NCBI GenBank assembly: GCA_963744145.1
Contig: CAVUSO010000001.1
Coordinates: 6,016,001-6,080,000, forward strand
DNA from: an uncultured cyanobacterium
Lineage (GTDB): Bacteria > Cyanobacteriota > Cyanobacteriia > Cyanobacteriales > CAWUOF01
DNA length: 64,000 nt
Reading direction: 5' to 3'
Part shown: positions 41,600 to 48,589 of the stretch, piece by piece
Layout: the number at the start of each line of letters is the position of its first letter
Numbering within the stretch: position 1 is the first letter of the stretch
The notes under the pieces: model-generated
Told to the model about the DNA's origin: nothing
Seen by the model: only the letters and a program-made list of their open reading frames with translations
Database searches by the model: none
Position numbers and translations under genes: made by a program

Positions 41600-42918
41600 T
41601 CAAAATTTCCCCCCTCCATCTGTTTCTAGTTGGGTTCGTAGTCGGACTGATGCAGCATGGGAAGGAAGTCCCTCAGCTTGGGCTAAAATCTCGATCGCAT
41701 GGGCGACTTTTTGCAGGGCTGTGGGGGAATATTGGATTAAGCTCGAGTGTTTCATAAAGGTTTCTACTCCTAGAGCCGAAGCATAACGAGCTGTTCCCGA
41801 TGTGGGCAAGGTATGGTTTGGTCCAGCAATATAGTCTCCGACCGCTTCTGGGGTGGAGTACCCGAAAAATATTGCCCCAGCATGACGAATCTGTTCTAGC
41901 AAAGCCCAAGGATCGGCTACTTCTAGCTCTAAATGTTCTGGAGCAAATCCATTAGACAACTCTGTCGCTGTTGCTAGCGAATCCACTACTACTATTAATC
42001 CATAATGGGCGATCGCTTTTTCTGTTAAGGTCCGACGTGGATGATCAACTAACTGGGTTTCGATCTCTGCTACTACCTTCAGAGCGATCGAGTTATCCGT
42101 TGTCAGTAAAATTGCTGCTGCCATCGGATCATGTTCAGCTTGGGCTAACAAATCCGCAGCTAAATATACAGGACTAGCGTTGCTATCGGCAATTATTAAT
42201 ACTTCTGACGGACCAGCTAAGGAATCTATATTTACTGTCCCATAAACGAGTTTTTTAGCCAGGGTCACGTAAATATTCCCCGGACCTGTAATCACATCGA
42301 CTTTGGGGATAGTCTCGGTTCCATAGGCTAACGCACCGATCGCCTCAGCCCCCCTACCCGATAGATTTCCTGGATGCCGGCTTCCTGGGCCGCTACTAAT
42401 ACGGCTGGATTAATCGTTTTTCCTGGTCCCGGTGGTGTGACAATGACCACTCTCGGCACCCCAGCTACTTGAGCTGGGATTGCATTCATCAATACTGTGC
42501 TGGGATAAGCTGCTCTACCTCCAGGTATATACAGCCCTGCTCGCTCTACGGGTGTATAGCGTTTTCCCAATACGATTTCATCTTCTCCAAATTGCACCCA
42601 GTTTTTGGGCACTCTTTGGCGATGAAATGCTTCGATGTTTTTTCGGGCTAGCTGGATCGCGTCTAATAAATCTTTGGACACCTGTTGATAGGCTGCATCT
42701 AATTCTGACCCACTGACCCGCAATTCATTGACACTTAAATCTTGCTGGTCAAATTCAGATGTATAATGCAATATCGCCCGGTCGCCTTGACGTTTCACTG
42801 CCTGAAGCACTTCTCGAACAGTTGCTTCTTTGTGAACAACATAGTCGTCATGGGTGCGATCGCAGATTCGACGCAATTCTATTTCTGCTTCAGCCCGCTG
42901 AGTAATTATTCGCAGCAT
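41600..42918 (-). CDS. hisD: Histidinol dehydrogenase, with an apparent -1 frameshift in the C6 run at 42349-42354
   Basis: [22 protein letters not shown], then [26 protein letters not shown] and [13 protein letters not shown]. One extra G on the minus strand restores [15 protein letters not shown] and a 439-aa protein. Confidence 0.93.
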
Positions 42919-44868: not shown

Positions 44869-47800
44869 ATGACCACAGCAATCACCAACCACTTTACCTT
44901 ACCGGATTTGGTTGAGATCCAACGTTCGAGTTTTCGTTGGTTTTTAGAAGCAGGATTAATCGAAGAACTAAACTCATTTAGTCCAATCACTGATTATACA
45001 GGCAAACTAGAACTACACTTTTTGGGCAAAGACTACAAACTCAAACGTCCTAAGTATGATGTAGACGAAGCCAAACGACGGGACGCTACCTACGCAGTGC
45101 AAATGTACGTTCCAACCCGTTTAATCAATAAAGATACCGGAGAAATCAAAGAACAAGAAGTATTTATTGGTGATCTCCCATTAATGACAGATCGAGGCAC
45201 ATTCATTATTAATGGAGCCGAGCGAGTCATTGTCAATCAAATCGTGCGATCGCCCGGAGTATATTACAAATCAGAAATCGACAAAAACGGACGTTCGGAC
45301 CTATAACGCTAGTCTGATTCCGAACCGAGGAGCATGGCTAAAATTTGAGACCGACAAAAACGATTTGGTTTGGGTCAGAATCGATAAAACGCGGAAACTC
45401 TCAGCTCAGGTTTTGCTGAAAGCATTGGGATTAGCAGATAATGAAATCTTCGATGCTCTGCGTCATCCAGAATACTTCCAAAAAACGATCGAAAAAGAAG
45501 GGCAATTTACCGAAGAAGAAGCCCTAATGGAACTATATCGGAAACTGCGACCAGGAGAACCCCCGACCGTATCCGGAGGAGAACAACTATTAAATTCGCG
45601 CTTTTTTGATCCCAAACGCTACGACTTAGGACGAGTTGGTCGATATAAACTGAACAAAAAACTCAGTCTGAGTGTATCTGATCTAGTCAGAGTGCTAACC
45701 CCACAAGATATTCTGGCAGCAGTAGACTACCTGATCAACCTGGAATTTGACATCGGGAAAACCGACGACATTGACCACTTAGGAAACAGAAGAGTTCGGT
45801 CAGTAGGGGAATTATTACAGAACCAAGTAAGAGTTGGCTTAAACCGTCTGGAAAGAATTATCCGGGAACGGATGACAGTATCTGACTCAGAAACCTTAAC
45901 TCCAGCTTCCTTAGTCAACCCGAAACCACTAGTTGCTGCGATCAAAGAATTCTTTGGTTCGAGTCAACTATCTCAGTTTATGGATCAAACCAATCCCCTC
46001 GCGGAATTGACCCATAAACGACGACTCAGCGCATTAGGACCAGGAGGTCTAACCCGTGAACGAGCTGGATTTGCAGTGCGTGACATTCACCCATCTCACT
46101 ACGGTCGGATTTGTCCCATTGAAACTCCAGAAGGACCAAATGCGGGATTAATTGGCTCTCTCGCTACCCATGCGCGAGTAAATGCGTATGGATTTATTGA
46201 AACCCCCTTCTACCCAGTCAAAAACGGGCGGGTATTAAGAGATCAACCCCCAGTTTACATGACTGCTGATGAAGAAGATGACCTCCGAGTAGCACCAGGA
46301 GATATTCGGGTAGACGCAAACGGAGATATTCAGGGAGAGTTAGTACCAGTCAGACATCGTCAGGACTTTACTACCACTACCCCAGATCAGGTGCAATATG
46401 TAGCTGTATCCCCAATTCAAATCGTTTCGGTGGCTACATCTCTGATTCCTTTCCTAGAACATGACGATGCTAACCGAGCTCTAATGGGTTCAAATATGCA
46501 ACGTCAAGCTGTCCCCTTGCTACGTCCAGAACGACCACTCGTAGGAACCGGATTAGAAGCACAAGCTGCAAGAGACTCAGGGATGGTCATTGTTAGTCGT
46601 ACTGATGGGGAAGTTACCTTTGTTGATGCTACCCGGATTCGGGTACGTCCGACTCACCCAACAGGTAATTTATCGATCGCCCCAAAGGTTAGTGGTGCAC
46701 TCGCTAAAAGTCCTGCCGCTATTATCACTAGTGCTGCTGCTGGTGGGACGGTAGCTGGGGCGATCGATGCGGTGACGGCGGCAGGTGGCCCTGTGGCAGT
46801 GACTGGTGATGTGGTGACTGATGGTGATGTGATAGCTGCGGGTGGGGCGATCGCTCTAGCGGATGGCGATCTAGCTGCTGGTGGAGCGATCGCCACAACA
46901 GATAGCACAGTTGCTGTATCTGGTACGGTGACGGTTGGGGGCACAGTGGTAGCAGATGAAACAGTGGTAGTAGATGGTCCAGTCGGTAAGGTTATTGCTG
47001 ATACTGTCAAGGCGATCGCAAGTCCCATTGCTACTCCGATCGTACCTGGTCCCATTGTTGGATTACCTATTGCTACACCGCGAATACACGAAATTGAATA
47101 TCAAATCAGCAAATATCAACGTTCCAACCAAGACACCTGTCTCAACCAACGTCCAATTGTCCGGGTCGGGGATAAAGTCGTAGCGGGACAAGTAATGGCA
47201 GATGGTTCAGCCACAGAAGGTGGAGAACTAGCACTAGGTCAAAATATTCTTGTCGCCTATATGCCTTGGGAAGGATATAACTATGAAGACGCGATCCTAA
47301 TCAGCGAACGTCTAGTTTATGACGATATCTATACCAGTATCCACATCGAGAAATACGAAATCGAAGCCCGACAAACCAAACTTGGTCCAGAAGAAATTAC
47401 CCGTGAAATTCCCAATGTGGGGGAAGATGCTTTACGCCAATTGGATGAAAATGGGATTATTCGGATTGGAGCTTGGGTAGAAGCAAGTGATATTTTGGTG
47501 GGGAAAGTAACACCAAAAGGGGAATCAGATCAACCACCAGAAGAAAAACTGCTCCGGGCAATATTTGGAGAAAAAGCACGAGATGTGCGTGATAATTCTC
47601 TCCGAGTGCCGAATGGGGAAAAAGGACGGGTGGTAGATGTGCGTGTGTTCACCCGTGAACAAGGGGATGAACTACCACCAGGAGCCAATATGGTGGTGCG
47701 GGTATATGTAGCCCAAAAACGCAAAATTCAAGTCGGCGATAAAATGGCTGGAAGACATGGAAATAAGGGGATCATCTCCCGGATCTTACCAGCAGAAGAT

Positions 47801-48589
47801 ATGCCCTATTTACCAGATGGAACACCAGTAGATTTAGTATTAAATCCTTTAGGGGTGCCGAGTCGGATGAATGTGGGACAAATCTTTGAATGTCTCTTAG
47901 GATGGGCTGGAGAAAATTTAGACCTACGGTTTAAAGTGGTTCCTTTTGATGAAATGCACGGAGAAGAAAAATCCCGTGAAACCGTTCATGCCAAATTAGA
48001 ACAAGCTGCTGAGGAAACTGGAAAAGATTGGTTATTTCACATTAATAATGCTGGGAAAACCTTGATCTATGACGGTCGAACTGGGGAAGCTTTTGACAGA
48101 CCAGTGACAGTTGGTAAAGCATATATGCTGAAATTAGTTCACTTGGTCGATGATAAGATTCACGCTCGGTCAACTGGACCATATTCCTTGGTGACTCAAC
48201 AACCATTAGGTGGAAAAGCCCAACAAGGTGGTCAACGCTTTGGAGAAATGGAAGTATGGGCACTAGAAGCATTTGGTGCAGCTTATACCCTCCAAGAATT
48301 GTTGACAGTAAAATCAGATGATATGCAAGGACGGAATGAAGCACTCAATGCGATCGTCAAAGGTAAAGCCATTCCCCGTCCAGGAACTCCCGAATCGTTC
48401 AAGGTGTTAATGCGGGAATTACAGTCTCTGTGTTTGGATATAGCTGTGCATAAAGTAGAAACTCAAGATGATGGCACTAGTCGTGATGTTGAGGTGGATT
48501 TAATGGCAGAAATTGCGAATCGTCGAACTCCCATGAAACCAGTTTATGAATCTCTATCTCGGGATGAAATTGATGAAGTGGATGAATAG
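44869..48589 (+). CDS. rpoB: RNA polymerase beta subunit, with an apparent +1 frameshift at 45294-45295 and a ~140-aa insertion
   Basis: The ATG at 44869 follows GAGGAG. Motifs [44 protein letters not shown] and [12 protein letters not shown]. Deleting one T restores DKNGRRTYNA and gives 1239 aa. Confidence 0.97.

What the first reader, a model, noticed from the sequence alone, without database searches (positions are those of the whole stretch)
46649..47089. ~140-aa low-complexity, repeat-built insertion inside RNA polymerase beta
Seen: 147 in-frame codons lie between the conserved RIRVR and [17 protein letters not shown]. They are rich in A/G/V/T/D/I/P, have no F/W/Y/C/M/Q, and contain internal repeats (AAGGAIA twice, [22 protein letters not shown] twice). 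The DNA has three perfect HIP1 sites (46847, 46886, 47012) plus several near-matches. Known: the equivalent loop is only about 10 residues in typical RpoB (around E. coli beta 736-747), and corrected RpoB here is 1239 aa versus roughly 1100 in most cyanobacteria. There are no intein termini. Inference: this is a lineage-specific surface appendage on RNAP, possibly grown by HIP1-associated duplications. It could be a disordered tether or a small beta-solenoid for factor binding or modification.
Basis: partly seen in the sequence, partly recalled or inferred. Interest (0 to 1): 0.72.

Follow-up and report, generated by a model that had tools for sequence, protein, structure and literature searches.

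The report
Insertion hot spot in cyanobacterial RpoB
This cyanobacterium's RNA polymerase beta subunit carries a real 142-residue repeat-built addition in a small loop that is fixed in other cyanobacterial orders but expands again and again in this one. The addition is likely a tolerated surface appendage, and it may be a decayed relative of a predicted helical module that appears to have moved between families into the same loop.

Summary
Confirmed: 147 in-frame codons (net +142 over the 5-residue minimal loop) lie in the hairpin of RpoB's sandwich-barrel hybrid domain (beta-bD1, E. coli about 736-748). An outside contig matches the left junction; the right is unverified. HIP1-driven growth is unsupported: 2526 of 2806 Ala-Ile-Ala tripeptides genome-wide are HIP1, codon use is native, and the repeats have diverged at silent sites. 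The sequence is private and folds poorly in prediction.

The site is the finding. The loop is minimal in all other-order genomes read but 5-57 residues in most loci read from this order; 6 of 382 genomes exceed 100. Four of those six, in four families, carry one homologous 210-260-residue predicted helical bundle. It is AT-rich, HIP1-free and absent from close kin, and its carriers are not a clade, so it likely moved horizontally. The window's insert resembles that module weakly at its ends (post hoc P about 0.002-0.01).

Best reading: a tolerated, non-catalytic appendage at an order-specific hot spot. I found no description of the site or module, but could not open Lane and Darst 2010.

The parts
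44869..48589 (+). rpoB, 1239 aa once the extra base at 45294 is discounted
   Evidence: X1 contig lacks the base
46568..46648 (+). First half of the host beta-bD1 sandwich-barrel hybrid motif (SBHM/HABAS), ending RIRVR
   Evidence: pLDDT 72-96; best structural match an RpoB chain, Z 9.2, rmsd 2.6, 75 aligned
46649..47089 (+). The 147-codon loop (net +142 residues)
46649..46732 (+). N-terminal stalk of the insert; faint likeness to the start of the helical module, not significant alone
   Evidence: 42 of 500 N-part shuffles score as high; pLDDT under 50
46733..46981 (+). A/G/V/T/D repeat core: AAGG four times, 6- and 13-residue units; low-confidence beta-hairpins predicted
46835..46855 (+). AAGGAIA copy 1, containing HIP1 at 46847
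46874..46894 (+). AAGGAIA copy 2, containing HIP1 at 46886; 3 of 7 codons differ silently from copy 1
46982..47020 (+). Predicted C-terminal helix containing HIP1 at 47012; aligns with the last helix of the helical module
   Evidence: helix 139-151 of the model; alignment
47021..47089 (+). Pro-rich C-terminal stalk (PIATP twice), weakly like the family-f38 type of helical-module stalk
   Evidence: 4 of 500 C-part shuffles score as high
47090..47209 (+). Second half of the host SBHM, starting EIEY
   Evidence: pLDDT 71-96

Best explanation
The insert is a real in-frame addition in the hairpin between the two halves of RpoB's small barrel (SBHM) domain, and it is likely translated and carried as a tolerated surface appendage with no part in catalysis. 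Shown: its position; that the site is a hot spot in this one order; that the sequence is private; that it has native codon use; that its repeats are significant in protein but diverged at silent sites. Inferred: (1) the loop ends sit side by side at the tip of the domain, so added chain projects outward and costs little, which is the same spot where SBHM domains of other proteins carry long inserts; (2) the core grew by old, local 6- and 13-codon duplications under weak constraint, and HIP1 sites accumulated in it as they do everywhere in this genome; (3) being hydrophobic, it probably collapses into a loosely packed beta-rich globule on two Pro-rich stalks instead of staying an extended tether; (4) it persists because it is harmless, not because RNA polymerase needs it.
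For: Position and fold: the host SBHM folds well around the insert. Its structural neighbours include HlyD, EmrA and Thermotoga NusG chains, whose matched ranges span long inserted stretches.

Hot spot: 80 of 80 re-searched genomes from other orders have the 327-nt minimal span. All other-order rows listed span 327-333 nt. Loops in this order run 5-57 residues with outliers of 122-262.

Fast turnover: G212 has 81 more residues than its congener G256 at 91-99% flanking DNA identity. The family sister G001 has 20 residues. Solved RNAPs of Synechocystis (8gzg) and Anabaena (8h3v) carry +7 and +19 residues here.

Native and old: GC3 0.36 equals upstream rpoB (0.36), with CAI 0.64 against 0.65. Silent identity on repeat diagonals is 12 of 29 against 9.1 expected.

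Private.
Against: GRAVY is +0.78, whereas all short loops read are polar (-0.17 or lower); only the helical module approaches it. Repeats kept in protein but not at silent sites could mean selection on a fold. The ends resemble the helical module more than shuffles do, which argues against wholly local origin. With one genome there is no dN/dS, and no RNA or peptide data were available.
Confidence: 0.52

Rival explanations
1. The insert is a decayed member of the 210-260-residue helical module found in the same loop in four other families. It would have kept the stalks and last helix, while the middle was deleted and refilled by low-complexity duplication. This differs from the best reading in origin, not necessarily in present function.
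For: Flank-anchored profile test: 117.8 bits against 107.7 +/- 3.0 for shuffles, reached by 1 of 500. 9 of 1000 natural segments of equal length scored as high. 15 control loops gave z from -1.6 to 1.7. The predicted helix lies at the same distance from EIEY as the module's last helix. Both are hydrophobic. The window's family lies in the same unresolved group as family f38 in the RpoB tree (support 91). This genome's low GC3 is like that of the modules.
Against: The test was designed after I saw the likeness. Unanchored tests found little: hhalign probability 0.1, BLASTP nothing, local scores not significant and profile P 0.02. The signal falls to z 0.7 without the f38-type members. True members score z 7.5-13. 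The first version of the test was inflated by conserved junction residues.
Confidence: 0.3
2. The insert is a selected, folded beta-solenoid or beta-roll that binds a factor or shields a surface of RNA polymerase, for example from a phage protein. The variability of the loop across the order would then reflect diversifying selection.
For: Hydrophobic V-x-G/V-x-V periodicity and predicted hairpins. Repeats are kept in protein while silent sites differ. Weak match to choice-of-anchor A (E 0.13, below cut-off). At least three classes of insert recur patchily at this one loop.
Against: pLDDT is under 66 throughout the insert. No Pfam or PHROG family. Likeness to the genome's 48 haemagglutinin-like proteins is no better than shuffles (P 0.17-0.45). 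The loop is minimal in 16 of 17 matched f38 genomes and in the other orders, so no common need is evident. No paper on a cyanophage protein binding this surface turned up (listing only).
Confidence: 0.13
3. The insert grew recently by HIP1-mediated recombination or slippage.
For: 3 HIP1 sites in 441 nt against 1.02 per kb genome-wide; two lie in the duplicated AAGGAIA unit.
Against: 2526 of 2806 AIA tripeptides in the genome's long ORFs are HIP1, so three of three is expected. Repeat borders do not fall at the HIP1 sites. Silent sites have diverged. The other long inserts at this loop contain no CGATCG. Passages of PMC5861425 treat HIP1 as a genome-wide feature with no gene-level function.
Confidence: 0.04
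4. The segment is an assembly artefact, or is removed from the RNA or protein (intron or intein).
For: The assembly has indel errors nearby (45294, 42348). The right junction is uncovered in X1. The RNA folds somewhat better than shuffles (z -2.6).
Against: An X1 contig bridges the left junction and 337 nt with no difference. The frame is open through both junctions while the other plus frames hold 11-12 stops. There is no second copy in the genome, no Rfam match and no intein family or termini. The folding score is expected from five palindromic HIP1-like sites.
Confidence: 0.04

Closest known systems
Lineage-specific insertions of bacterial RNAP beta: E. coli beta-i4/SI1 (225-343), beta-i9 (938-1042), beta-i11; BEAN insertions (PMC2939025, passages; PMC11515920, parts 1-2 of 6 plus passages)
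   Same: In-frame addition over 40-50 residues in a surface loop of RpoB, limited to some lineages. Beta-i4 was called a dispensable region.
   Different: The site is inside beta-bD1 (E. coli 715-790), which is not among the five sites listed in PMC11515920; that paper classes cyanobacterial beta as type 1, lacking such inserts. Known inserts are folded domains shared by whole phyla. This one is low-complexity and private to one genome, at a site that varies within genera.
Inserts in the hairpin of SBHM/lipoyl-like domains: cyanobacterial SI3 in beta', periplasmic adaptors HlyD/EmrA, Thermotoga NusG
   Same: Same host fold; matched ranges in HlyD, EmrA and NusG span long inserted stretches. 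That these lie at the equivalent hairpin is recalled, not tested residue by residue.
   Different: SI3 is a conserved run of nine SBHMs in the trigger loop with a shown function (PMC10120043, PMC11561172, passages). Here the host is the core beta SBHM and the cargo is not an SBHM.
Variable regions of green-algal plastid RpoB (PMC1931444, passages) and the expanded Chlamydomonas PEP core (bioRxiv 10.64898/2026.06.23.732312, passages)
   Same: Large size variation at internal RpoB sites (11 sites, one of 7-803 codons) in a cyanobacteria-derived enzyme; neutral expansion was proposed for it.
   Different: Organelle genomes, not free-living cells. I could not establish whether any of those sites is this loop, because the figure was not available.
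Inteins in RNA polymerase subunits (such as She_RPB2, named in PMC1931444)
   Same: Patchy, site-specific, horizontally spread in-frame insert in an essential gene. This describes the helical module at this loop.
   Different: No Cys/Ser start, His-Asn end or Hint family in the window's insert or the module. The module is predicted all-helical, and the site is a variable surface loop.

Membership tests
Lineage-specific insertion of RNAP beta | In-frame addition over about 40-50 residues between regions shared by all bacteria | tested here: met
   net +142 residues with conserved flanks
Lineage-specific insertion of RNAP beta | Restricted to a lineage | tested here: met
   absent from the family sister and not found elsewhere
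Lineage-specific insertion of RNAP beta | Present in the mature protein | not testable with these tools
   no RNA holder listed; no peptide data
BEAN/BBM2 or HABAS/SBHM inserted domain | BEAN or SBHM sequence or fold in the cargo | tested here: inconclusive
   no Pfam or PDB sequence match; the insert model is too weak for fold search, and matches cover only the host
Intein | Cys/Ser/Ala start, His-Asn end before Cys/Ser/Thr, Hint domain | tested here: not met
   termini P...H/E, no Cys, one Asn near the start; no family hit
Group I/II intron or other curated RNA element | Match to an intron covariance model | tested here: not met
   no match in L001 at E up to 1
Small mobile repeat (MITE or SDR type) | Further copies in the genome | tested here: not met
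   best other blastn hit 29 nt, E 0.064
Helical beta-bD1 module (G028, G039, G040, G066; defined here) | Same insertion site | tested here: met
Helical beta-bD1 module (G028, G039, G040, G066; defined here) | Sequence homology | tested here: inconclusive
   unanchored tests not significant; anchored test 1 of 500 shuffles, post hoc
Helical beta-bD1 module (G028, G039, G040, G066; defined here) | 210-260-residue bundle of long helices | tested here: not met
   147 residues, two short predicted helices and a Gly/Val repeat core
Beta-helix repeat (haemagglutinin, choice-of-anchor A) | Regular repeat giving a confident solenoid or a family match | tested here: inconclusive
   E 0.13 below cut-off; no better than shuffles; low-confidence hairpins only

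The most novel reading that the evidence does not exclude
The beta-bD1 hairpin of RNA polymerase is an exchangeable cassette site in one large cyanobacterial order. Foreign protein modules, above all a 220-residue helical bundle of unknown family, spread between families by recombination in the conserved flanks without carrying the rest of rpoB, like an intein that never splices out. They act as variable shields or docking arms in a conflict, and then decay into repeats; the window's insert is such a module caught in decay.
Probability: 0.2. Interest if true: 0.78.

Novelty: new variant of a known kind. Interest (0 to 1): 0.5.

Why it matters
Alone, a private low-complexity loop in RpoB is a curiosity. 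The survey shows more: a site in an essential enzyme that is fixed in other cyanobacterial orders accepts 5 to 262 residues in this one, including a folded module with foreign base composition whose carriers are not a clade. That adds a site and a cargo to the published map, which treats cyanobacterial beta as insert-free. It also gives natural with/without pairs (G040 and G004; G066 and G254; G212 and G256) for asking directly whether polymerase inserts are adaptive or neutral, and it marks a likely permissive site for tagging cyanobacterial RNA polymerase.

Tried and rejected
Relatives of the insert. None in the protein database (only the 7992 and 7994 best candidates were scored), metagenome contigs, viral contigs, phages, Pfam, PHROG or PDB. 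The one genome hit, L074, is a chance match to a GDVVTD tandem repeat (53, 57). The Atlas could not be searched for this sequence, which leaves language-model look-alikes open.

Donors in its own genome. Haemagglutinin repeats were rejected (P 0.17-0.45). An inverted Pro/Thr linker read from the 133-codon antisense ORF was not supported (9 of 150 shuffles as high).

Expression. No RNA holder listed. X1 has no cover at 46986-47150.

Fold. Searches of both models matched only the host barrel. Neither cargo was folded alone, so their folds are untested.

Helical module donor. None among 1.84 billion representatives (two weak unrelated hits), viral contigs, plasmids, metagenome contigs or the Atlas. 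L078 and L080 are spurious. Tape-measure hits are weak (E 0.005-0.18).

Literature. Eight searches found no description of inserts at this loop. Lane and Darst 2010 and Iyer 2003 were not held, and they may list an insert here in other phyla. The one supplement file of PMC11515920 gave no hits for three terms; its figures could not be seen. No complex prediction was run.

Full report
Observation. The repeats exceed residue shuffles (AAGGAIA twice: 2 of 1000). The 7.7-Mb, 4-contig genome has one copy of this DNA. One public run, X1, holds the organism. Its contig 46441-46985 has no difference, so it bridges the left junction; 46986-47150 is uncovered, and X1 may be the source sample. X1 contigs also remove the frameshifts in rpoB (45294) and hisD (42348), so these are very likely assembly errors, and RpoB is 1239 aa.

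Site. The flanks are the two halves of a sandwich-barrel hybrid motif. The model has pLDDT 71-96 there, and the best structural matches are RpoB chains and biotinyl/lipoyl-type domains (Z 9.2, rmsd 2.6, 75 aligned). This is beta-bD1, E. coli 715-790, in PMC11515920 (parts 1-2 of 6 and passages read). That paper lists five sites of lineage-specific insertion in beta, none inside this domain, and classes cyanobacterial beta as lacking them; it left out inserts under 50 residues. By alignment the loop is 5 residues at minimum, about 12 in E. coli, and 12 and 24 in the solved Synechocystis and Anabaena enzymes.

Survey. In the order, 382 of 401 genomes matched. The 69 other genomes with split matches were checked by coordinates (63, plus G327) or by reading loci; G190 and G327 are cut by contig ends and stay undetermined. 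Six of 382 have loops over 100 residues: the window, G212 (122), and G040, G028, G066 and G039 (212, 219, 228, 262). The other loci read run 5-57. This is a lower bound, since single-match genomes were assumed short and only 150 rows were listed. In other orders 270 of 275 genomes matched. Every such row listed spans 327-333 nt, and 80 of the 94 split-match genomes were re-searched and all gave 327 nt; 14 were not re-checked. The family sister G001 has a 20-residue polar loop. G212 carries 81 more residues than its congener G256 at 91-99% flanking DNA identity. So the loop is fixed elsewhere and labile in this order.

HIP1. Three sites in 441 nt is above the genome's 1.02 per kb, but 2526 of 2806 AIA tripeptides in 2637 long ORFs are written as HIP1. 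GC3 (0.36) and CAI (0.64) match upstream rpoB (0.36, 0.65), so the GC peak comes from the amino acids. On the six best repeat diagonals 12 of 29 identical residues share a codon, against 9.1 expected (z 1.2). The insert is long resident and its duplications are old. Nothing ties them to HIP1. That relaxed constraint let HIP1 sites arise and create AIA is possible but untested.

Structure of the insert. With no homologues the model is weak: pLDDT about 30-65, hairpins at model residues 76-96 and 115-135, and helices at 62-71 and 139-151. GRAVY is +0.78, whereas every short loop read is -0.17 or lower, so it is not an ordinary polar tether. Searches for a family or donor failed.

The helical module. 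The four longest inserts are homologous (pairwise z 55, 10, 10 and 6; two of six pairs not significant). Six database hits, all RpoB, carry it. It is predicted to be a bundle of long helices (mean pLDDT 76.6, pTM 0.73) with no identified family or fold. It occurs in 1 of 13 genomes of genus g3 and 1 of 2 of g5, and in 1 of 17 matched genomes of family f38, the other 16 having the minimal loop. In a quick RpoB tree without the loop, carriers group with their own kin; G040 is sister to insert-free G004. Holding the four together is rejected (p-AU 1e-14; 16 rows). Their GC3 is 0.24-0.31 against 0.47-0.68 in upstream rpoB. It is below every nearby host ORF in three hosts but typical in G066. They use CGATCG at 0 of 19 compatible sites against 7.8 expected. 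Flanks are host-like up to the junctions. Horizontal gain of the module alone is the best reading. Ancient gain with many losses and AT drift is the rival, weakened by the canonical minimal loops in close kin.

Is the window's insert a decayed module? Unanchored comparisons give little. An end-anchored test gave P 0.007. A flank-anchored profile, after fixing conserved junction residues that inflated, gave z 3.4 (1 of 500 shuffles; 9 of 1000 natural segments), while 15 control loops gave z of 1.7 or less. The signal lies mostly in the last 40 residues, depends on the f38-type members (z 0.7 without them), and is far below true members (z 7.5-13). These tests were designed after I saw the likeness. 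I give it about 0.3.

Mechanism. Most likely (0.52) this is a translated, tolerated appendage projecting from the SBHM hairpin, grown by old local duplication, loosely folded and not needed for catalysis. Position, lability, privacy and native codon use are shown. Translation, surface exposure in the whole enzyme, folding state and dispensability are inferred. Rivals are descent from the helical module (0.3), a selected binding or shielding fold (0.13), HIP1-driven growth (0.04) and artefact or splicing (0.04).

Novelty. It works like a lineage-specific RNAP insertion and meets the testable criteria for one. It is not an intein, intron or MITE, and whether it has a BEAN or SBHM fold is inconclusive. 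Eight literature searches did not find this site or module described; Lane and Darst 2010 could not be read, so novelty of the site across all bacteria is not settled. Earlier scan notes record other RpoB inserts at other sites, none here. Verdict: new variant of a known kind, interest 0.5, most of it from the hot spot and the mobile-looking module and little from the low-complexity segment itself.

Noticed in passing
L034:1817-2467, L035:1842-2627, L040:2276-2959, L041:1765-2397; P0005-P0010: Homologous 210-260-residue predicted helical bundle inserted in the same RpoB loop in four families; AT-rich, HIP1-free, absent from close kin, no donor found. Deserves its own study.
   Followed up: yes
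L049, L050, L055-L058, L060, L061, L063, L065, L067: A second, small shared insert at the same loop (35-57 residues, motif roughly F-x-I-R-[DE]-Y-D...K-Y-G) in some genera of families f19, f28, f32 and f36; patchy, with host-like GC3.
   Followed up: partly
L054:1354-1920 (G212) against L059 and L066: Recent 81-residue polar expansion with short tandem repeats inside an existing 41-residue loop, between genomes 91-99% identical in flanking DNA.
   Followed up: partly
window 45294 and 42346-42348: Frameshifts in rpoB and hisD are absent from X1 contigs, so broken genes in this assembly should be treated as possible sequencing errors.
   Followed up: yes
genome G000, long ORFs: 90% of Ala-Ile-Ala tripeptides are encoded as HIP1, a strong coupling that makes HIP1 counts in coding DNA misleading.
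   Followed up: yes
window 46654-47055, minus strand: A 133-codon Ala/Thr/Pro-rich antisense ORF overlaps the insert; probably a by-product of GNN codons (P 0.06 against own-genome linkers).
   Followed up: yes
genome G000, e.g. C1:6959517-6998242: 48 ORFs carry the haemagglutinin-type secretion motif, many in tandem clusters.
   Followed up: no
G474:C388:476-820 and G534 (C1 and C3): Second rpoB-like copies in two genomes of other orders (57% identical to the query in G474; equal scores in G534); contamination or duplication.
   Followed up: no
L074:2683-3177: An Acidimicrobiia ORF after polA with at least ten tandem GDVV[TS]D units in an acidic N-terminal region.
   Followed up: no
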